Below are positions 12,317 through 63,813 of a DNA stretch of 64,000 nucleotides, in pieces (position 1 is the first letter of the stretch; the number at the start of each line of letters is the position of its first letter). The notes under the pieces were generated by a model, which saw only the letters and a list, made by a program, of their open reading frames with translations, was not told the DNA's origin and searched no databases. Source of the stretch: a virus. The stretch is from IMG/VR virus record IMGVR_UViG_3300022719_000329, positions 1 through 64,000 of that record; one strand, written 5' to 3'. The translations under genes were made by a program, and so were the position numbers.

Positions 12317-13045
12317 CTATATTACTGTATCTATTATCTCTATTACTTCTTCAAAGCCTTCGGAATTGAATAAAGCCCAGTTTCTCATAGCCGGAAATAA
12401 ATCTTTCAATGCTTTTACAGCATCCTGAACGTTTGTTTCTATTTCGGGCCTCTTGGAGACCTTCAAAATTTCCTGTTCAATTTGGTACAGATTAGCATTG
12501 AGCAATTCTCGGTTACGTATACAAACAGCCTTTACATATTCTTCGTCTACATGGGGATACTTGGTGTGTAAAAGTTCAAAACTAGTGATAAAAGAGAAAT
12601 CATTGTAAACCTTTTCTAATTCGGCGATGGCCTCTTGGTCCCAGTTATGTGCTAAAGTAAGATGTCCGTAGTGTTTATTTAGTTCTTCATCGAACTGTAC
12701 ATTTACTCTCATAACGTTGGGGTCCACGGGGGGAAACTTGATCTGGTTGTAGTCTTTCCGTAAAGCGATGTTCTTCCAGATATTAAATCCCATTTCCCCA
12801 AGCCCTAGTACGGGGGCCGCGATAGCCGCCGGGGGAACGAACGCAAGTACCGCTTTCAAAGCAGCCACGCCTCTCAAAATATTTTGATCAGAAAACATGC
12901 GTGGTTTTATAGCCAAGTACTTAGGCTCTATTTTCTGATCCTCTTTTTTCACGGCTTTTAGAACCGATAAGATTGCTCCAGCCCAATTTATCAATTGAAG
13001 TCGTCTCCAAACTGCCTTCAAAGAGGCAACTAGTTTATTCCACAT
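12317..13045 (-). CDS. hypothetical protein with hydrophobic N-region
   Basis: 242-aa ORF; 11-nt overlap with the upstream gene. Confidence 0.45.
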   Translation of the reverse strand: MWNKLVASLKAVWRRLQLINWAGAILSVLKAVKKEDQKIEPKYLAIKPRMFSDQNILRGVAALKAVLAFVPPAAIAAPVLGLGEMGFNIWKNIALRKDYNQIKFPPVDPNVMRVNVQFDEELNKHYGHLTLAHNWDQEAIAELEKVYNDFSFITSFELLHTKYPHVDEEYVKAVCIRNRELLNANLYQIEQEILKVSKRPEIETNVQDAVKALKDLFPAMRNWALFNSEGFEEVIEIIDTVI

Positions 13046-35481: not shown

Positions 35482-35500
35482 CAGAGTCACCTCCAAGGAA

Positions 35501-35529
35501 ATAATAAGGTATCAGGCACCCCATGTCAA
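35501..35529 (-). promoter_or_regulatory. sigma70-type promoter TTGACA-17-TATTAT for the left arm
   Basis: Minus strand reads TTGACAtggggtgcctgataccttATTAT-type layout, immediately upstream of the SD/ATG of 35481. Confidence 0.5.
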
Positions 35530-35653
35530 TAATTATCTTCCCCTCTAGGTAATTAGTACACTGGATATAAATTGATCCTCCCCTTTAGATTTGAAAGTGG
35601 TCCCAGTGTGTAACAGGCACCCCATATGTACTCCTGTACACGAACAGTTCAGC

Positions 35654-35679
35654 GGCATTATAGGGCCACCTATAATGCC
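35654..35679. promoter_or_regulatory. perfect 11+11 bp palindrome (operator candidate)
   Basis: GGCATTATAGG gcca CCTATAATGCC, abutting the AGGAGG SD of the first plus-strand gene. Confidence 0.45.
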
Positions 35680-35691
35680 AGGAGGTACAAC

Positions 35692-35838
35692 ATGGCTCCT
35701 ATCGTTGCCGGGCTCCGTCTCGTCTGCACCCTGTGCAGGTCCGAGACGTACTCCTCTCCCCCGCTCAACACGGAGGAGATCCGAGAGGCGCACGATGTCT
35801 GCACATCGTGTGCTCGCGAGATGAATCTCACTCGCTAG
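35692..35838 (+). CDS. small zinc-ribbon protein
   Basis: 48 aa; CTLC ... CTSC; AGGAGG SD; GC content jumps at this ATG. Confidence 0.45.
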   Translation: MAPIVAGLRLVCTLCRSETYSSPPLNTEEIREAHDVCTSCAREMNLTR

Positions 35839-59234: not shown

Positions 59235-59288
59235 GACCAAGTGGCCCCGGGAAACACCGAAACCTTCATGACCAGAAAGGAACCCGCC

Positions 59289-59975
59289 ATGCGCAAGTTC
59301 ACCCTCGCCTTCCTGACCCTCGGGGTCATCTTCGCCTTCAGCTTCGCCACGCCCGCCTTCGCCTCCGGCAACGACAACTCCTGCCGCGGACACAGCTGCA
59401 ACGACGTCACCAACACGACCCACAACCAGGGCGGCCACGGCGGCGACGCCCACGTGATCGGCTCCGGCAACTCGCGCAACCTGAACCGCAACGTGAACCT
59501 GAGCGCCAGCGACGCGACGGCCGGGGCTGCCGCCCTGAACCGGACCAACGTCCGCAACAACGTGCGCAACACGGTGAACAACGCCAACCGCCAGGGCCAG
59601 AAGCAGGGCCAGGGCCAGTTCCAGGGCCAGGGTCAGCAGCAGGGGCAGGTCGGCATCGTGCGCGACGGTGACGTGGTGGACAACTCGAGCGTCTCGGTCG
59701 AAGGCGACGACGTGCGCTACGACTTCCCCGTCGCACCGGCGGCCCCGGTCTTCGCCGGCAACTGCGCCCAGGGGATCAGCGTCCAGACCCACCAATTCGG
59801 AGGCTCCGCTGCCAGCTCCAATCCCGTCTGCGACTACATCGCCGTGTCCGGAGCCTTCATCGCCGCCGGGGAGCGAGGAGAAGCCCTGCGGGTGATCGGG
59901 AAGGCCGAGGACGCCGCCGACTGGCGCTTCACCTTCGCCCGGATCCGCAACGTCCTGACGCTCGGCCTGCTCTAG
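59289..59975 (+). CDS. secreted Asn/Gln/Gly-rich low-complexity protein
   Basis: 228 aa; signal peptide MRKFTLAFLTLGVIFAFSFATPAFA; NVRNNVRNTVNNANRQGQKQGQGQFQGQGQQQGQ. Confidence 0.5.
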   Translation: MRKFTLAFLTLGVIFAFSFATPAFASGNDNSCRGHSCNDVTNTTHNQGGHGGDAHVIGSGNSRNLNRNVNLSASDATAGAAALNRTNVRNNVRNTVNNANRQGQKQGQGQFQGQGQQQGQVGIVRDGDVVDNSSVSVEGDDVRYDFPVAPAAPVFAGNCAQGISVQTHQFGGSAASSNPVCDYIAVSGAFIAAGERGEALRVIGKAEDAADWRFTFARIRNVLTLGLL

Positions 59976-60086: not shown

Positions 60087-60153
60087 TTCTCGTGAACCAA
60101 CAACCGTTACCCGGGTGGACACTCGGGCAACACCAGACCGAAAGGACAAGTCC

Positions 60154-60696
60154 ATGGACATCAACGTCTGCACCATCGTGGGGCGCCTCGCCGGCGACCC
60201 CGTGCTCAAGAGCTACAAGAAGGGCGACGGCACCGAGGGCTTCCGGTGCTTCATGCGCGTCGCGGTGACGCGCCTGATGGACCGGGGCCAGAAGGACCGC
60301 GAGAAGCGCCGGACCAACTTCGTGCCCGTCGTGGCCTGGGGCGAGGCCGCCAAGCGTCACGCCCAGTTCCTGGCCAAGGGGACGCAGGTCACGGTGACCG
60401 GCGAGCTGATCGCCGAGTCGCAGCGCCAGCAGGACGGCTCCTACCGGGAGTTCATCCACCTGCAGGCCAACGACGTGCAGTACGGCCAGCGCCCGCTCAA
60501 GAACGCCACGCCCGAGCAGGCCCAGCGCCAGCTGGACGCCGCGCAGCGCCGGATCGAGGAGATCGCCGCGGGTGCCTCCACGGGCACCCCCGCCTCCGCG
60601 CCGGCGGCCGAGGCGGCCGCGCCCGAGGGCACGCCCTTCGGTGGCGCCAGCGACGGGGACAACCCCTTCGCCGCGCCGGCGGGGGCCTCGGCCTAG
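60154..60696 (+). CDS. ssb: single-stranded DNA-binding protein
   Basis: 180 aa; OB-fold pattern NVCTIVGRLAGDPVL..FMRVAV..TNFVPVVAWGEAA..KGTQVTVTGEL; Ala/Pro/Gly linker and DNPF near the C-terminus. Confidence 0.85.
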   Translation: MDINVCTIVGRLAGDPVLKSYKKGDGTEGFRCFMRVAVTRLMDRGQKDREKRRTNFVPVVAWGEAAKRHAQFLAKGTQVTVTGELIAESQRQQDGSYREFIHLQANDVQYGQRPLKNATPEQAQRQLDAAQRRIEEIAAGASTGTPASAPAAEAAAPEGTPFGGASDGDNPFAAPAGASA

Positions 60697-60724: not shown

Positions 60725-60765
60725 GAAGGGGCTCTCCGGTAATCCCGGGGAGCCCCTTCTTTTTT
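60725..60765 (+). terminator. intrinsic terminator
   Basis: GAAGGGGCTCTCCGG/CCGGGGAGCCCCTTC stem followed by T6. Confidence 0.75.
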
Positions 60766-60792: not shown

Positions 60793-61053
60793 ATGAAGAT
60801 TCAAGAGGCGATCAAAGCCTGCCAGAGCAAGGAAGGCCTGTTCGCCCGGCCTCGGAACTGGCAAGGCCAAGGTGAAGCCGTCGATCTCGGCCAGCACATG
60901 AACCAGGAGCGGGCGATGCGTGTCGCACCCATGTCCCACCGAGCTCTCCACGGCCACGAATGGCGACCGATTGCCGCCGATCTCCTGGACGCATGGGAGC
61001 TGGTAGAGCTCAGCACCCTGGTAGGTGAAGTAATCGAAGACGATCTCACCTAG
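60793..61053 (+). CDS. DUF2829 / Tad2-like protein
   Basis: 86 aa; MKIQEAIKACQSKEGLFARPRNWQGQG N-terminus and EWRPIAADLLDAWELV C-terminus fit the DUF2829 pattern. Confidence 0.5.
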   Translation: MKIQEAIKACQSKEGLFARPRNWQGQGEAVDLGQHMNQERAMRVAPMSHRALHGHEWRPIAADLLDAWELVELSTLVGEVIEDDLT

Positions 61054-61073: not shown

Positions 61074-61079
61074 TATAAT
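61074..61079 (+). promoter_or_regulatory. consensus -10 hexamer TATAAT upstream of pup
   Basis: TATAAT lies 47 nt upstream of the GTG at 61126; no correctly spaced -35 (TTGACG abuts it). Confidence 0.35.
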
Positions 61080-61125
61080 TCCTCTTGCGGGTTAGACTAA
61101 CTAACCTGCAAAGGAGGTGAGCCAA

Positions 61126-61317
61126 GTGAGCGAACGAGTCCAAAAGGACCGCCCGGCCGAGAAGACCGAGGAGCAGGGCGAGAAGACCGAACCCAAGGAC
61201 CTACACAATGAAGAACTCGAAGCGGCGACGGACGACCTCATCGACGCGATCGACGAGGTCCTCGAGGAAAACGCGGAGCAGTTCGTCAAATCGTATATAC
61301 AAAGAGGGGGACAATAG
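61126..61317 (+). CDS. pup: prokaryotic ubiquitin-like protein Pup
   Basis: 63 aa from the GTG after AAGGAGGT-N7; C-terminal TDDLIDAIDEVLEENAEQFVKSYIQRGGQ versus M. tuberculosis Pup TDDLLDEIDDVLEENAEDFVRAYVQKGGQ (from memory); disordered acidic N-half; ends GGQ. Confidence 0.9.
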   Translation: MSERVQKDRPAEKTEEQGEKTEPKDLHNEELEAATDDLIDAIDEVLEENAEQFVKSYIQRGGQ

Positions 61318-61351
61318 TATAACTTACACAGAATCTTCTTGACTTTCTTTG

Positions 61352-61357
61352 TATAAT
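61352..61357 (+). promoter_or_regulatory. -10 hexamer TATAAT upstream of the EndoVII gene
   Basis: TATAAT lies 47 nt upstream of the ATG at 61404; TTGACT sits only 7 nt upstream, so it is not a canonical -35. Confidence 0.3.
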
Positions 61358-61403
61358 CTCGTATCCTTCTTGTGGGAGCGCAGCTCCCCAGGAGGATATT
61401 GTT

Positions 61404-62057
61404 ATGGCTGTCAAAGATATTGTAGGAGAAAGATTTCATAGATTAGTAGTACTGTCTAGAGAACCTAACGACAAACACTATTCCGCTATGTGGCTTTGCC
61501 GTTGTGATTGCGGCGAGACCAAAGTAGTTCAGGGAAAGGCGCTGCGTAGAGGATATATAAAGTCTTGTGGCTGTCTGCGGAAAGAACAATCTGCGGAAAA
61601 CGCGAAAACGAGAAAGCGAAGACCTGTCACCGATTGGAGCCAGAGGCAAGAAAAGTACTGTCCTTGTTGTGAGAATACATTACCTGTCGAAGATTTTGGA
61701 AAAAACCGGTCTTCCTACGATGGATTTACGGGGTATTGCAAGAAGTGCCATAGGAACAAAGGGTACGAGAACAGAAAGAAAAACTGGGGGAGTTCTAGGC
61801 ACTATCATCTAACTCGAAGGTATGGCATCTCCGCAGAAGAAGCTGATGCTTTGCTGGAAAACCAAGGGAATATCTGCGCCATTTGTCAGCAGCCTGCCAA
61901 TCCCCAACTGAAAAAACCCTGGCACATAGACCATGACCACAAGACAGGAAAGGTACGGGGAATACTCTGCCATTCCTGTAATACAGCGTTGGGAAACTTC
62001 AACGATGATCCAGAAATACTGGATAGAGCGCTGGATTACGTGAAGAAAAGAAAGTGA
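61404..62057 (+). CDS. endonuclease VII-family (His-Me/HNH) nuclease, homing-type
   Basis: 217 aa; CAIC...HIDHDHKTGKVRGILCHSCNTALG; N-terminal GERFHRLVVL..CRCDCG..SCGC module; AT-richer than its surroundings. Confidence 0.8.
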   Translation: MAVKDIVGERFHRLVVLSREPNDKHYSAMWLCRCDCGETKVVQGKALRRGYIKSCGCLRKEQSAENAKTRKRRPVTDWSQRQEKYCPCCENTLPVEDFGKNRSSYDGFTGYCKKCHRNKGYENRKKNWGSSRHYHLTRRYGISAEEADALLENQGNICAICQQPANPQLKKPWHIDHDHKTGKVRGILCHSCNTALGNFNDDPEILDRALDYVKKRK

Positions 62058-62113
62058 AATGTGACGAACTCTTCTAAAGCGTCCCCGTTTGGGGCGCCGC
62101 TGAAGGGAGACCC

Positions 62114-62293
62114 ATGCCCACCCGAATGAAGTTCAAGGAGCGGCGAGCCATCCGCCGCAACGAAGCCGCCGGGCGCCAGCAAGAACGCGAACAGCGCGGG
62201 GATGCTGGGCAGCTCAAGCGTCTGGAACAGCAAGGTTTCGGTGAATGCCGAGAGGCCAAGCGCCTGCGCCAGAAGCTGGCCAAAGGCGCATGA
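62114..62293 (+). CDS. small basic protein (59 aa)
   Basis: GC3-rich; GGGAGA SD; below the track cutoff; antisense to the listed 62074-62553 ORF. Confidence 0.35.
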   Translation: MPTRMKFKERRAIRRNEAAGRQQEREQRGDAGQLKRLEQQGFGECREAKRLRQKLAKGA

Positions 62294-62541
62294 GCCTCAT
62301 CATCTCCAAGACCGACTATACCGAGGTTTACTGCGAAGATGCGAAAGTCACTAACGGTATGGTGACTGCTTATACCTATTGGGACAACGGCCGCCACTTC
62401 GTGCGAGAAGTCGTGGGGAAGTTTCCACTCAAGGACGTCGAGAGTCTGAACTGGGACAGCCATAGCCCGCTGCTCTCCACCACCGAGCCCACCAGGCGCT
62501 CGTGGGTTTCCCGCCTGCTGGGCTGCCTGGGCTGGCGATAA
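62290..62541 (+). CDS. hypothetical protein
   Basis: 83 aa; ATGA overlap with the upstream micro-ORF. Confidence 0.4.
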   Translation: MSLIISKTDYTEVYCEDAKVTNGMVTAYTYWDNGRHFVREVVGKFPLKDVESLNWDSHSPLLSTTEPTRRSWVSRLLGCLGWR

Positions 62542-62560
62542 AGTACCAGCCACCCTTCCC

Positions 62561-62589
62561 TTGACATAGCGGGGACGATAGCATATAAT
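62561..62589 (+). promoter_or_regulatory. perfect sigma70 consensus promoter TTGACA-17-TATAAT
   Basis: TTGACAtagcggggacgatagcaTATAAT, 86 nt upstream of the phosphatase ATG. Confidence 0.6.
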
Positions 62590-62590
62590 T

Positions 62591-62659
62591 CCCTTACGCT
62601 GCAGTAAGGGCGCCCTTTGCAGGGACTAGGTGCAATGCCTGGTCCCTGCTACTCTTTTT
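62591..62659 (+). promoter_or_regulatory. structured leader with terminator-like hairpin (attenuator candidate)
   Basis: CCCTTAC/GTAAGGG hairpin, AAGGGCGCCCTT palindrome allowing alternative pairing, then the 12-bp stem GCAGGGACTAGG/CCTGGTCCCTGC followed by CTCTTTTT. Confidence 0.4.
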
Positions 62660-62674
62660 CGACGAGGAGATAAC

Positions 62675-63436
62675 ATGGCTACCTACGCCATCGGTGATAT
62701 ACACGGCTGCTTGGATGAACTGAAGCACCTCATCCAGACTCTTCAAGAGAAGGCCGGATTGTCATCCGCCGACCGTCTGGTGTTTGTTGGTGATTATATA
62801 GATCGAGGACCCGATTCCAAGGGCGTAATCGATTATCTGATTCAACTCCAAGGGCGATATCCGTGTATTTTCCTGATGGGAAACCATGAAGACATGATGC
62901 TTTGGTACCTAGGTATTCGCCATGGGTCTAAGATTAGTTTAAGTGATGCTAGCCAAAGAGCGGGCGCTTGGCTTCCTAATGGGGGCCGGCAGACTCTAAC
63001 TAGTTACGGTATAGACATTATCGACTATTTCAATTCAGGCGGCGTCCACGATCAGCTGGCGTCTGATCTGGTTCCCAAATTTATCCCCAGGAATCATATA
63101 GAATTCCTACGCAACCTGTCGTATCACTATATCCAAGATTCAATTCTATTCGTTCACGCCGGGATAGGGCCTTGGGCCGTGGATTCGGAATCGGCTACTG
63201 AAGCCTTGGAGAGATCGACAGAATGGGATCTCCTCTGGGATAGAAGTTCGTACGGAAAGCCAAACGATTTCGGAACTTTGGTTTACGGGCACACCCCGTC
63301 CAAGAACGGAGTACGGTGGCTTAGCCGTGATGAAGACCAGCCTCCCTATTCTGTAGGTATTGACGTAGGTTGTGTGTTCGGATGTAATCCGCTGACAGCC
63401 GTACGTATAGAAGACTGGCAAGAGTTTACTTATTAG
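62675..63436 (+). CDS. PPP-family Ser/Thr phosphatase / ApaH-PrpE-like metallophosphoesterase
   Basis: 253 aa; GDIHGC, GDYIDRGPDS, GNHE motifs I-III; GAGGAGA SD. Confidence 0.85.
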   Translation: MATYAIGDIHGCLDELKHLIQTLQEKAGLSSADRLVFVGDYIDRGPDSKGVIDYLIQLQGRYPCIFLMGNHEDMMLWYLGIRHGSKISLSDASQRAGAWLPNGGRQTLTSYGIDIIDYFNSGGVHDQLASDLVPKFIPRNHIEFLRNLSYHYIQDSILFVHAGIGPWAVDSESATEALERSTEWDLLWDRSSYGKPNDFGTLVYGHTPSKNGVRWLSRDEDQPPYSVGIDVGCVFGCNPLTAVRIEDWQEFTY

Positions 63437-63440
63437 ATGT

Positions 63441-63516
63441 TGCCGGGTAGCACAACTGGCAGTGCGCAAGGCTCTGAACCTTGAGGTTGCGGGTTCGACT
63501 CCCGCCCCGGCATCCA
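63441..63516 (+). tRNA. tRNA-Gln (anticodon CUG), CCA encoded
   Basis: Hand-folded cloverleaf: acceptor TGCCGGG/CCCGGCA (U1-A72), D stem GCAC/GTGC with GG loop, anticodon stem CAAGG/CCTTG with loop CTCTGAA, T stem GCGGG/CCCGC with loop TTCGACT, then TCCA. Confidence 0.9.
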
Positions 63517-63570
63517 GTATGAGAAGATAAGATTACCTATAATAGATCTCTCACAGATCTGGGAGGCTAC

Positions 63571-63813
63571 ATGAGCCACACCAACCAAGAGGCGCGCCGA
63601 GAACTGGACGAGACGCTCCAGCGGCTGCGCCACAAGTACCCCGATCTCCGCCTGACCCAGTTGATCGGGAACGCAGTCCCGCCTCCGGAGGCTACCCGGC
63701 GCGGGAACGATCTGTATTACGTCACCGACGAAGATCTTCTGGGCTGGCTGCGCCAGTACGAAGCCAAGATCGACGAGCTGCGCCGGGAGCGTCAGGGGGA
63801 TCAGCATGCGTGA
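63571..63813 (+). CDS. hypothetical protein
   Basis: 80 aa; GGGAGG SD; TATAAT at 63538-63543 and the AGATCTctcacAGATCT inverted repeat lie upstream. Confidence 0.45.
   Translation: MSHTNQEARRELDETLQRLRHKYPDLRLTQLIGNAVPPPEATRRGNDLYYVTDEDLLGWLRQYEAKIDELRRERQGDQHA

What the first reader, a model, noticed from the sequence alone, without database searches (positions are those of the whole stretch)
61074..61317. Stand-alone Pup (prokaryotic ubiquitin-like protein) gene in a virus-like gene neighbourhood
The 63-aa ORF has a disordered acidic N-half. Its C-terminal half, TDDLIDAIDEVLEENAEQFVKSYIQRGGQ, matches about 21 of 31 positions of the Mpa/PafA-binding helix and GGQ terminus of mycobacterial Pup as I recall it. 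It has its own TATAAT and a strong AAGGAGGT SD. No dop, pafA, mpa/arc or prcAB gene is in the window. Its neighbours are phage-type genes: Tad2-like, EndoVII, lambda-type phosphatase, tRNA and SSB. The GGQ (not GGE) end implies dependence on a host Dop deamidase. I hypothesise viral manipulation of host pupylation, either tagging host or defence proteins for proteasomal loss, or acting as a decoy that saturates PafA/Mpa to protect viral proteins. I do not know of a described virus-encoded Pup.
Basis: partly seen in the sequence, partly recalled or inferred. Interest (0 to 1): 0.92.

Follow-up and report, generated by a model that had tools for sequence, protein, structure and literature searches.

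The report
Phage-encoded Pup protein-degradation tag
A large bacteriophage carries its own copy of Pup, the small bacterial "ubiquitin-like" tag that marks proteins for destruction, but none of the enzymes that attach or read the tag. Dozens of unrelated phages do the same, so viruses seem to tap into their hosts' protein-tagging system, and I found no paper describing this.

Summary
Window 61126-61317 (+) encodes a 63-aa protein that passes both curated Pup models (Pfam PF05639, 63.2 bits against a cutoff of 27; TIGR03687, 54 against 41.45). It aligns without gaps to M. tuberculosis Pup in solved Mpa, PafA and Dop complexes and ends in GGQ.

The contig is a tailed phage. It carries a terminase, clamp loader, Dda helicase, SSB, ThyA and DHFR. 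Identical proteins also sit on a 296-kb JGI contig, so it is probably a jumbo phage. The 90.6 kb I could read holds no dop, pafA, mpa or prcAB.

It is not unique. Streptomyces phage Dagobah has an annotated Pup. Forty-two IMG/VR contigs (about 16 lineages by flanking genes) and further Logan, JGI and ENA phage contigs also carry stand-alone Pups, and none has Dop or PafA nearby, against 76 of 80 cellular loci. Two diverged relatives of this phage keep Pup at the same place (SSB, Tad2-like, Pup). dN/dS within viral lineages is 0.06-0.34.

Most likely the gene encodes a working tag that host Dop and PafA attach to proteins. A decoy role is the main rival. I found no paper describing phage Pup. 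Function and host remain untested.

The parts
61126..61317 (+). Pup coding sequence: 63 aa, GTG start, TAG stop at 61315-61317. Product: MSERVQKDRPAEKTEEQGEKTEPKDLHNEELEAATDDLIDAIDEVLEENAEQFVKSYIQRGGQ
   Evidence: ORF list and sequence. Pfam PF05639 63.2 bits and TIGR03687 54 bits, both above their curated cutoffs. The Logan contig carries the same gene call.
61126..61227 (+). N-terminal half (residues 1-34). It is acidic and low-complexity with the family-typical start M-x-E-R/Q-x-Q-K. In cellular Pup this is the part threaded into the Mpa pore (established knowledge).
   Evidence: 11 acidic and 6 basic residues. N-terminal motif shared with cellular Pups. Contains the 'KDLxNEEL' motif. 'NEEL' occurs in 7 of 33 phage Pups against 1 of 79 cellular ones.
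61228..61314 (+). C-terminal half (residues 35-63): the helix-forming segment that binds Mpa, PafA and Dop, plus the GGQ terminus.
   Evidence: Residues 27-63 align without gaps to M. tuberculosis Pup 28-64 in PDB 3M91, 3M9D, 7PX9 and 4BJR. Identity is 21 of 29. Family-invariant I42, D43, V45, L46, E47, N49, A50, F53, V54, Q59, G61 and G62 are all present.
61111..61117 (+). Shine-Dalgarno sequence AAGGAGG, 8 nt upstream of the GTG start.
   Evidence: Read directly from the sequence.
61081..61117 (+). Leader hairpin. Its 5' arm (CCUCU...) pairs with the Shine-Dalgarno sequence. It may control translation or stabilise the mRNA.
   Evidence: RNA fold dG -20.9 kcal/mol, z = -4.07, 0 of 200 shuffles as stable. 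The next gene (EndoVII) has a leader of the same design, dG -23.7, z = -3.67.
61074..61079 (+). -10-like TATAAT box, 46 nt upstream of the start codon. There is no canonical -35.
   Evidence: Sequence. It is one of only five + strand TATAAT boxes in 35.5-64 kb. Four of them sit 27-85 nt upstream of start codons in 61-63.6 kb. The sigma-70 scan did not call it.
60793..61053 (+). 86-aa Tad2-like (DUF2829-type) gene, the conserved upstream partner of Pup in this phage lineage.
   Evidence: PF11195 full-length but sub-threshold hits in the window protein and in both orthologues (E 0.006, 0.0057, 0.0015). In relatives L151 and L154 its stop overlaps the Pup start by 4 nt.
60151..60696 (+). SSB gene, the synteny anchor (SSB, Tad2-like, Pup) shared with related phages. 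A terminator-like hairpin follows at 60725-60759.
   Evidence: PF00436 57.5 bits and phrog_44. 66% identical orthologue in L151. Terminator-like site.
61404..62057 (+). EndoVII-family nuclease gene immediately downstream. It is probably a mobile endonuclease insertion and not part of the Pup unit.
   Evidence: PF02945 94.6 bits. 45% GC in a neighbourhood of 57-73% GC. Absent from the syntenic position in L151 and L154.

Best explanation
The gene encodes a bona fide, conjugation-competent Pup carried by a large (probably jumbo) tailed phage that has no Pup enzymes of its own in the 90.6 kb examined.

Proposed mechanism:
1. During infection the phage makes Pup-GGQ.
2. The host's Dop deamidates the terminal Gln to Glu.
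3. The host's PafA ligates it to lysines of target proteins.
4. The tag's helix docks on the Mpa/ARC coiled coil, and its conserved disordered N-terminus is threaded into the pore for unfolding and proteasomal degradation.

The phage thereby tops up or takes over the supply of a tag that is consumed during use. This raises Pup-dependent turnover of host proteins, either for amino-acid recycling or to remove host factors, possibly defence proteins.

Shown here: family membership, viral context, absence of cognate enzymes, recurrence in many phages, syntenic conservation and purifying selection.

Inferred: that it is expressed, that it is a Dop/PafA substrate, which proteins get tagged, and what the phage gains.
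For: **Family membership.** Above curated cutoffs. All 35 phage-context Pups tested hit PF05639.

**Interaction residues.** Gapless alignment to Pup chains solved in complex with Mpa, Mpa-proteasome, Dop and PafA. All invariant helix residues are retained.

**Exact C-terminus.** 29 of 30 unique viral Pups in the first survey end in GG[QE] followed directly by the stop codon, as do the later ones. Q and E interchange within one phage lineage (L050 against L052).

**N-terminus.** The motif is conserved as in cellular Pups. This argues that Mpa threading still matters.

**Selection.** dN/dS is 0.06-0.34 between related viral copies that also share flanking phage genes.

**Synteny.** Retained at the same position in diverged relatives L151 (Pup 61% identical; neighbours 28-73%) and L154. 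Two other phage lineages also keep it at a fixed place: the SU10-adaptor lineage (L149, L150, L155) and the tubulin-encoding lineage (L152, L153, L156).

**No phage partner.** No gene family other than Pup, apart from generic HNH and portal genes, is shared across the 19 Pup-bearing groups compared, so host enzymes are needed.

**Contrast with cells.** Dop/PafA/Mpa lie within 6 kb in 76 of 80 cellular pup loci. They were found in 0 of the 49 IMG/VR viral loci, in none of the phage-context contigs fetched later, and nowhere in the window's contig as far as read.
Against: - There is no experimental or expression evidence of any kind.
- The host is unknown, so I could not show that it has Dop, PafA or Mpa.
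- Only 90.6 kb of a genome that is probably at least 296 kb was readable. A phage-encoded ligase elsewhere cannot be excluded.
- Without a phage-specific ligase or adaptor, it is unclear how extra Pup would change which proteins are tagged.
- The same conserved features (helix plus GG[QE]) would also be needed by a decoy that occupies the PafA or Dop active sites.
- GGE is not enriched over GGQ in viral copies (17:12, against 43:36 in cellular ones). There is therefore no sign of selection to bypass Dop.
Confidence: 0.55

Rival explanations
1. Decoy or competitive inhibitor. Abundant free phage Pup occupies the Mpa coiled coils and/or the Dop and PafA active sites. Host pupylation or Pup-dependent degradation is then blocked and phage proteins escape tagging and destruction.
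For: The Mpa/PafA/Dop-binding helix is fully conserved. A published analysis proposes that mycobacteriophage proteins are depleted in lysine to avoid pupylation, which would mean host pupylation is a pressure on phages (PMC10665810). The gene sits next to, and in relatives is translationally coupled with, a Tad2-like gene, a family known as an anti-defence 'sponge'. The penultimate K is replaced by R in 25% of viral Pups against 4% of cellular ones. The cellular sample is biased.
Against: A pure Mpa decoy would not need the exact GG[QE] terminus or the conserved N-terminal threading segment, yet both are kept. A ligatable Pup would be conjugated anyway. The phage's own proteins show no lysine avoidance beyond what G+C content explains (K/(K+R) 0.51 and 0.28 in the 44% and 60% GC arms).
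Confidence: 0.25
2. Self-contained viral tagging. The phage ligates and processes its Pup with its own enzymes, namely the GGACT / COOH-NH2 ligase / Peptidase_C26 (GATase) module 12.5-17 kb downstream on the same contig. These are all gamma-glutamyl or carboxylate-amine chemistry. By my own knowledge, not tested here, the ligase belongs to the same broad carboxylate-amine ligase superfamily as PafA and Dop.
For: Pfam: GGACT 78.5 bits, COOH-NH2_lig 51.5 bits, Peptidase_C26 78.1 bits, at L148 13920-18072. The chemistry would fit: Gln deamidation, ligation through a Glu gamma-carboxylate, and cleavage of gamma-glutamyl-lysine.
Against: A PafA/Dop profile shows no detectable similarity to the phage ligase (hhalign probability 0.6%). 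None of the other Pup-bearing phage loci shows this module within 6-10 kb of Pup. A similar gene set (amidoligase, COOH-NH2 ligase, glutamine amidotransferase) is annotated in a Pseudomonas podovirus, and these terms recur in papers on E. coli and marine-bacterium phages. To my knowledge those hosts lack Pup. The module is 12.5 kb or more from Pup with many unrelated genes between.
Confidence: 0.05
3. Non-functional passenger: a recently captured host gene fragment with no role in the phage.
For: Phage genomes pick up host genes. In this window Pup sits in a cassette-like region with a mobile endonuclease next to it.
Against: The ORF is intact with a Shine-Dalgarno sequence. Orthologues are retained at the same place in diverged relatives. 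dN/dS is 0.06-0.34 in viral lineages. The closest relatives of this Pup are other phage Pups (66% L145, 61% L151) and not any cellular Pup among GTDB species representatives (at most 60%).
Confidence: 0.05
4. Artefact: a host chromosomal fragment, a mis-binned sequence or a chimeric assembly, so that Pup is not really viral.
For: The window is compositionally bimodal (44% against 60% GC) with a sharp switch at about 35.5 kb. One 'phage' database hit (MT835496) did turn out to be a bacterial arc-dop-pup-pafA locus.
Against: Both compositional arms carry phage genes. Identical proteins from both arms (Dda helicase, EndoVII, COOH-NH2 ligase, and a terminase in the same 90% cluster) occur on one independent JGI contig of 295,848 bp. 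The canonical dop/prcBA/pafA context is absent. The same SSB, Tad2-like, Pup arrangement is present in two independent assemblies from other samples.
Confidence: 0.02

Closest known systems
Cellular Pup (prokaryotic ubiquitin-like protein; Pfam PF05639, TIGR03687) of Actinomycetota, Myxococcota-type MAGs and other lineages
   Same: Size (63 aa), acidic low-complexity N-half, the M-x-E-R/Q-x-Q-K start, the conserved helix segment D-x-I-D-E-V-L-E-E-N-A-E-x-F-V, and the terminal GGQ. Gapless alignment to M. tuberculosis Pup in solved complexes.
   Different: It is encoded by a phage and not in the dop-pup-prcBA-pafA locus, which 76 of 80 cellular loci have. Identity to any cellular Pup sampled is at most 60%. 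It has A41, Q52 and R60 where cellular Pups have E (96%), E/D and K (96%). It carries a 'KDLxNEEL' motif that is common in phage copies and rare in cellular ones.
Streptomyces phage Dagobah gene HUN42_00036 (QMP84414.1), annotated 'ubiquitin-like protein Pup' (GenBank MT711977)
   Same: A stand-alone Pup in a cultured tailed phage with no dop or pafA in the 12 kb read around it. It lies among small genes next to the endolysin and primase/polymerase genes. It shares the NEEL motif.
   Different: 78 aa with an inserted helical segment. It ends in GGE, so it is ready for PafA without Dop. It is about 40% identical to the window protein over residues 3-63. The phage is unrelated, 47 kb long and infects an actinobacterium. 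The genome paper does not mention the gene.
Stand-alone Pups of uncultivated phages (IMG/VR loci L004-L053; Logan/JGI/ENA loci L145-L156)
   Same: The same phenomenon: small complete Pup ORFs among terminase, portal, capsid, endolysin and replication genes, with no Dop, PafA, Mpa or Prc. L151 and L154 are true syntenic relatives of this phage.
   Different: Most belong to unrelated phage lineages. Pup sits in different modules: the structural operon after the SU10-type adaptor, near the terminase, or near lysis genes.
Ubiquitin genes of eukaryotic viruses (for example baculovirus v-ubi); own knowledge, not tested here
   Same: A virus carries a copy of the host's small protein modifier but relies on host conjugation enzymes.
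   Different: Ubiquitin has a beta-grasp fold and E1/E2/E3 chemistry. Pup is intrinsically disordered and is ligated by a glutamine-synthetase-like enzyme. The two are not homologous.
Phage 'auxiliary' copies of rapidly turned-over host proteins (for example cyanophage psbA); own knowledge, analogy only
   Same: The phage replaces a host component that is consumed during use and would run out once host gene expression is shut off.
   Different: Different pathway. No evidence yet that Pup supply limits anything during infection.

Membership tests
Pup protein family (PF05639 / TIGR03687) | Significant match to the curated family models, above their cutoffs | tested here: met
   PF05639 63.2 bits (cutoff 27), E=4.4e-17. 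TIGR03687 54 bits (cutoff 41.45).
Pup protein family (PF05639 / TIGR03687) | Small protein (about 60-80 aa) ending exactly in Gly-Gly-Gln or Gly-Gly-Glu | tested here: met
   63 aa...IQRGGQ followed by the stop codon.
Pup protein family (PF05639 / TIGR03687) | Conserved C-terminal helix-forming segment that contacts Mpa, PafA and Dop | tested here: met
   Gapless alignment of residues 27-63 to M. tuberculosis Pup in 3M91, 3M9D, 7PX9, 7OXY and 4BJR. All family-invariant positions are present.
Pup protein family (PF05639 / TIGR03687) | Intrinsically disordered N-terminal half | tested here: inconclusive
   Composition is acidic and low-complexity, and the N-terminal motif matches cellular Pups. 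No disorder predictor or experiment was run.
Pup protein family (PF05639 / TIGR03687) | Deamidated by Dop, ligated to lysines by PafA, and bound by Mpa/ARC | not testable with these tools
   Needs biochemistry or complex modelling.
Pup-proteasome system (complete locus: mpa/arc, dop, pup, prcB, prcA, pafA) | pup is linked to dop and pafA (and to mpa and prcBA where present) | tested here: not met
   tblastn with Dop, PafA, Mpa, PrcA and PrcB queries finds these genes in 76 of 80 cellular loci. It finds nothing in the window, L003, L134 or L148, which together cover 90.6 kb of the contig. The phage carries the tag only. The rest of a genome of roughly 296 kb is unread.
Tailed phage (Caudoviricetes) genome | Hallmark genes on the same contig | tested here: met
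   Terminase large subunit at L134:16682-18517 (phrog_2, E=5.9e-29). Clamp loader, Dda-like helicase, SSB, EndoVII, HNH and NinI phosphatase. ThyA, DHFR, dNMP kinase and MazG. UDG and SLT. No portal or capsid gene lies in the part I read.
Tad2-like / DUF2829 (PF11195), for the upstream partner gene | Match to the family model above the gathering score | tested here: inconclusive
   17.5, 17.6 and 19.4 bits against a cutoff of 25. The hits are full-length (1-73 of 73) in three orthologues that are only about 41% identical. A single-sequence AlphaFold model was unusable (pLDDT 53).
PafA/Dop-type Pup ligase (PF03136), for the phage COOH-NH2 ligase at L148:15608-16504 | Detectable sequence or profile similarity to PafA/Dop | tested here: not met
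   It hits PF14395 (phiEco32-like COOH-NH2 ligase type 2). hhalign against a PafA/Dop profile gives probability 0.6%. tblastn is negative.

The most novel reading that the evidence does not exclude
Phage Pups form a virus-maintained clade of degradation tags used for host takeover or counter-defence. In this lineage Pup is expressed together with a Tad2-like anti-Thoeris sponge, and the phage floods the cell with Pup so that host PafA marks host proteins, including immune proteins, for Mpa-proteasome destruction. In the most radical version, the jumbo phage's own COOH-NH2 ligase / GATase / GGACT module conjugates and recycles the tag, which would make a self-contained viral pupylation system.
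Probability: 0.15. Interest if true: 0.92.

Novelty: new variant of a known kind. Interest (0 to 1): 0.77.

Why it matters
By established knowledge, pupylation is the only known bacterial protein-tagging system that feeds a proteasome. It has been studied as a cellular stress and virulence pathway of Actinobacteria.

A conserved, selected Pup gene in many unrelated phages would be the prokaryotic counterpart of virus-encoded ubiquitin. It would put pupylation into the phage-host conflict alongside the recently described ubiquitin-like defence systems.

It would also extend the pathway's relevance beyond Actinobacteria, because this subfamily resembles Myxococcota-type Pups.

The idea can be tested directly. 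Streptomyces phage Dagobah is in culture and carries such a gene. To my knowledge, pupylation mutants of Streptomyces coelicolor have been made.

Tried and rejected
1. **MT835496.** tblastn against GenBank phages found only two records. One, 'Bacteriophage sp.' MT835496, is a bacterial arc-dop-pup-pafA locus and not a phage. The M. tuberculosis Pup query found nothing, probably because of low-complexity masking.
2. **PHROGs.** PHROGs v4 has no family matching Pup.
3. **Relatives in IMG/VR.** A search with the SSB found none. The EndoVII query gave only domain-level hits with no Pup nearby.
4. **Host from terminase.** The closest cultured relatives are Bacillus phages at about 29% identity, which is uninformative.
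5. **GGE enrichment.** I tested whether viral Pups favour GGE, which would bypass Dop. They do not (17:12 against 43:36).
6. **Lysine avoidance.** Lysine content of this phage's proteins simply follows G+C.
7. **Conserved partner gene.** None is shared across the Pup-bearing groups.
8. **PafA/Dop against the phage COOH-NH2 ligase.** No similarity.
9. **Tad2-like structure.** The single-sequence AlphaFold model had pLDDT 53 and was unusable, so no fold search was run.
10. **The 295,848-bp JGI contig.** It carries identical proteins but could not be retrieved.
11. **Rfam.** Only the tRNA is found in 60-64 kb.
12. **Genome loci without Dop/PafA.** L084 (Myxococcota MAG) is ordinary bacterial DNA and not a prophage. 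L070 and L095 are short contigs.
13. **N/Q-rich secreted protein.** The look-alike next to Pup in L145 is not significantly similar once composition is corrected.
Full report
**1. The observation**

Window 61126-61317 on the + strand is an intact 63-codon ORF. It starts at GTG and stops at TAG, and AAGGAGG lies 8 nt upstream. The frame is also open from a GTG at 61117 that lies inside the ribosome-binding site. The 61126 start gives the N-terminus typical of the family (M-S-E-R-V-Q-K) and matches the gene call on the source contig.

The protein scores 63.2 bits against Pfam Pup (PF05639, cutoff 27, E=4.4e-17). It scores 54 bits against NCBIfam TIGR03687 'ubiquitin-like protein Pup' (cutoff 41.45).

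Residues 27-63 align without a gap to M. tuberculosis Pup residues 28-64. That Pup chain is present in solved complexes with Mpa (3M91, 3M9D), with Mpa-proteasome (7PX9) and with PafA (4BJR). Further Pup peptide entries (7OXY, 7OY3) also match. Identity is 21 of 29 over TDD...GGQ and 23 of 37 over the whole aligned stretch. The N-half has 11 acidic and 6 basic residues.

A TATAAT box lies 46 nt upstream of the start, but there is no -35 at canonical spacing and the sigma-70 scan did not call it.

**2. The surroundings are viral and lack the Pup enzymes**

The window comes from a 117,527-bp Logan contig (SRR23862439_33861). Genes confirmed in the window are:
- SSB and an EndoVII-family nuclease
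- clamp-loader subunits
- a Dda-like helicase, HNH nucleases and two phosphatases, one of them NinI/lambda-type
- tRNA-Gln

The flanks that I could fetch add:
- a terminase large subunit (phrog_2, E=5.9e-29)
- ThyA, DHFR, a dNMP kinase, MazG and a NusG-like protein
- UDG, an SLT lytic transglycosylase and a second SSB

Identical copies of four of its proteins, and a terminase in the same 90% cluster, sit on a JGI/IMG contig of 295,848 bp. The phage is therefore probably a jumbo phage. I could not retrieve that contig.

I ran tblastn with Dop, PafA and Mpa, and with PrcA/PrcB taken from five cellular loci. These queries recover the genes next to pup in 76 of 80 cellular loci from distant phyla. 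They find nothing in the 90.6 kb of this contig that I read.

**3. It is not a one-off**

Among 50,697 GenBank phage records, Streptomyces phage Dagobah carries a 78-aa gene annotated 'ubiquitin-like protein Pup'. It ends in GGE and lies between the endolysin and primase/polymerase genes. Its genome paper does not mention it. The other hit, MT835496, is really a bacterial arc-dop-pup-pafA locus.

A pattern scan of IMG/VR with a Pup alignment found 42 viral contigs with complete Pup ORFs of 57-78 aa once the correct start is taken. None has Dop, PafA, Mpa or Prc within 6-10 kb. Their neighbours include terminase, portal, major head protein, endolysin and primase.

By shared flanking genes, these contigs plus this phage, Dagobah and a short Logan contig fall into 19 unrelated groups. 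Apart from generic HNH and portal genes, Pup is the only family common to them.

A JGI metagenome scan and a profile search of the 5.8-billion-protein collection added more contigs:
- L145 and L146: Pup 66% identical, with dCMP deaminase and lysozyme
- L149, L150 and L155: Pup inside the structural operon, just after an SU10-type head-tail adaptor
- L152, L153 and L156: Pup in a phage with a tubulin gene, ribosomal protein S21 and a sigma factor
- L151 and L154: see section 4

All six long contigs that I looked up from the top of the profile search were phage-like and lacked the Pup enzymes. All 35 phage-context Pups tested hit PF05639.

**4. Conservation and selection**

L151 (35 kb, a different sample) and L154 (32.6 kb, a third sample) are collinear relatives of the window's high-G+C arm. 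In L151 at least 20 ORFs match the window or its flanks at 25-79% identity, and L154 is collinear across 53-62 kb. Both keep the order SSB, Tad2-like gene of about 85 aa, Pup.

Pup is 61% identical in L151. In both relatives the small upstream gene overlaps the Pup start by 4 nt, so the two genes form an operon there. The EndoVII gene that follows Pup in the window is absent from both relatives. It has 45% G+C in a neighbourhood of 57-73%, so it is probably a mobile endonuclease insertion.

Within viral lineages that also share flanking genes, dN/dS of Pup is 0.06-0.34.

Of the 30 unique viral Pups in the first survey, 29 end in GG[QE] directly before the stop, and one is degenerate. Q and E interchange within one lineage. 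Positions D43, L46, A50, F53, Q59, G61 and G62 are invariant in 28 viral copies. The N-terminal M-x-E-x-x-Q motif is kept.

The window protein's closest relatives are phage Pups (66% L145, 61% L151). No cellular Pup among those recovered from 185,579 GTDB species representatives exceeds 60%. Two motifs are enriched in phage copies: 'NEEL' (7 of 33 against 1 of 79 cellular) and 'AKD[LIM]' (6 of 33 against 0 of 79). This hints that part of the viral diversity is a phage-borne clade exchanged among phages. The sequences are short and the cellular sample is biased, so this is only a lead.

**5. Host**

The host is unknown. The best cellular matches overall are Acidimicrobiia MAGs at 50-55% identity. 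The '...QRGG[QE]' ending of this subfamily occurs in 9 of the 79 cellular Pups sampled, all from Myxococcota or 'Deltaproteobacteria' MAGs. Subfamily members resemble that type more than the actinobacterial type.

The OmpA-domain genes in L151 and L154 and the SLT gene on this contig would fit a diderm host. That is inference only. The terminase gives no clue.

**6. How it most likely works**

From established pupylation biochemistry (not tested here):
- Pup-GGQ must be deamidated by Dop.
- PafA then ligates it through the terminal Glu to substrate lysines.
- Its helix docks on the Mpa coiled coil.
- Its disordered N-terminus is pulled into the pore.

The phage protein keeps every sequence feature that these steps need. 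It is under purifying selection and has no phage-encoded partner that recurs with it. The most economical reading is a working tag fed into the host pathway, raising or sustaining Pup-dependent turnover during infection (confidence 0.55).

The main rival is a decoy that saturates Mpa, PafA or Dop (0.25). That reading is favoured by the neighbouring Tad2-like 'sponge' gene and by a published suggestion that mycobacteriophages avoid lysines to escape pupylation (PMC10665810). It does not explain the conservation of the N-terminal segment. This phage's own lysine content shows no special avoidance.

A third reading is that the phage's own module handles Pup. This is the GGACT / COOH-NH2 ligase / Peptidase_C26 module at L148 13920-18072, outside the window. 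The chemistry is attractive, but the idea is unsupported:
- There is no similarity to PafA/Dop.
- The module does not co-occur with Pup in other Pup phages.
- A similar gene set is annotated in a Pseudomonas podovirus, and the same terms recur in papers on E. coli and marine-bacterium phages. To my knowledge those hosts have no Pup.

The passenger-gene and artefact readings are contradicted by synteny, selection and independent assemblies.

**7. Novelty**

Nine full-text searches relevant to phage Pup and reading of the Dagobah paper and a 2021 pupylation review found no description of a virus-encoded Pup. Automatic annotations do exist in GenBank for Dagobah and in JGI. The library excludes most subscription journals, so an earlier mention cannot be ruled out.

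I rate this a new variant of a known kind. It is a known protein family in an undescribed viral, enzyme-less and evolutionarily maintained setting.

**8. Limits**

- No expression or biochemical data.
- Host unknown.
- Only about 31% of a probable 296-kb genome was read.
- Pattern-based surveys undercount.
- Pup is short, so phylogenetic statements are weak.
- Viral status of IMG/VR contigs was verified with hallmark genes for a sample only.

Noticed in passing
window 1-64000 (switch at about 35,500-35,700); L134 and L003 for the continuation: The contig is compositionally bimodal. The left arm (at least 45 kb, genes on the - strand, including terminase, ThyA, DHFR and clamp loader) is 40-51% G+C, mostly 42-48%. 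The right arm (at least 33 kb, genes on the + strand) is 57-67% G+C. The switch is sharp and falls at a divergent promoter-like region with back-to-back TATAAT boxes at 35662 and 35671. Proteins from both arms occur on one independent 296-kb JGI contig, so a chimera is unlikely.
   Followed up: partly
window 61074-63575: Four + strand TATAAT boxes lie 27-85 nt upstream of consecutive genes: Pup 61074, EndoVII 61352, phosphatase 62584 (a perfect TTGACA-17-TATAAT) and an 80-aa ORF 63538. The Pup and EndoVII leaders have the same design, with the -10 box 46 nt before the start and a strong hairpin whose 5' arm pairs with the Shine-Dalgarno sequence (dG -20.9 and -23.7 kcal/mol, z about -4). This could be translational control or 5' mRNA stabilisers.
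   Followed up: partly
L148:13920-18072 (same contig, 12.5-17 kb beyond Pup, outside the window): A module of GGACT (gamma-glutamyl cyclotransferase-like), a phiEco32-type COOH-NH2 ligase and a Peptidase_C26/GATase, interleaved with four proteins that have no Pfam match (83, 301, 289 and 263 aa). All are gamma-glutamyl or amide-bond chemistry. No detectable link to PafA/Dop.
   Followed up: partly
window 60793-61053; L151:9432-9689; L154:7756-8004: The small gene upstream of Pup gives a full-length but sub-threshold match to the Thoeris anti-defence Tad2-like domain in all three orthologues. In two relatives it is translationally coupled to Pup by a 4-nt overlap. This may be an anti-defence operon.
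   Followed up: partly
window 61404-62057: The EndoVII-family nuclease gene has 45% G+C and its own -10 box and leader hairpin. It is missing at the syntenic site of relatives L151 and L154. It looks like a mobile (homing-type) endonuclease inserted next to Pup.
   Followed up: yes
window 59241-59975; L145:1156-1989: A secreted-looking protein rich in N and Q (signal-peptide-like start, then N-rich and Q-rich tracts) is conserved in relatives L151 and L154. A collinear look-alike lies directly after Pup in the otherwise unrelated phage contig L145. The similarity is not significant after composition correction.
   Followed up: partly
L152:17394-18503 and 12543-12752; L152:4469-5710 (-); L156:2341-3570 (-): Another Pup-bearing phage lineage encodes a tubulin (PhuZ-like) gene, ribosomal protein S21, a sigma factor and a conserved AAA ATPase of about 410 aa, 4 kb upstream of Pup. 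The ATPase shows only generic AAA similarity to Mpa and lacks the Mpa N-terminal domains.
   Followed up: partly
L002 (GenBank MT835496.1, 37627-49716): A record labelled 'UNVERIFIED: Bacteriophage sp.' from human faeces contains a canonical bacterial arc(mpa)-dop-pup-pafA locus at this position. At least this part of the 159-kb scaffold is bacterial.
   Followed up: yes
L149:7430-9151; L155:7066-8195; L012: In an SU10-adaptor (kuravirus-like) phage lineage, Pup sits inside the virion structural operon, butted against its neighbours (shared or adjacent stop and start bases). It follows the head-tail adaptor and precedes a protein of 731-853 aa. This implies late expression, unlike the replication-gene context in this window.
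   Followed up: no
L084 (Myxococcota MAG contig CBDDEE010000010.1): A cellular pup gene that is not next to dop or pafA, in ordinary bacterial DNA. It is one of three such exceptions among the 80 genome loci; the fourth locus without Dop/PafA/Mpa's count was not identified.
   Followed up: partly
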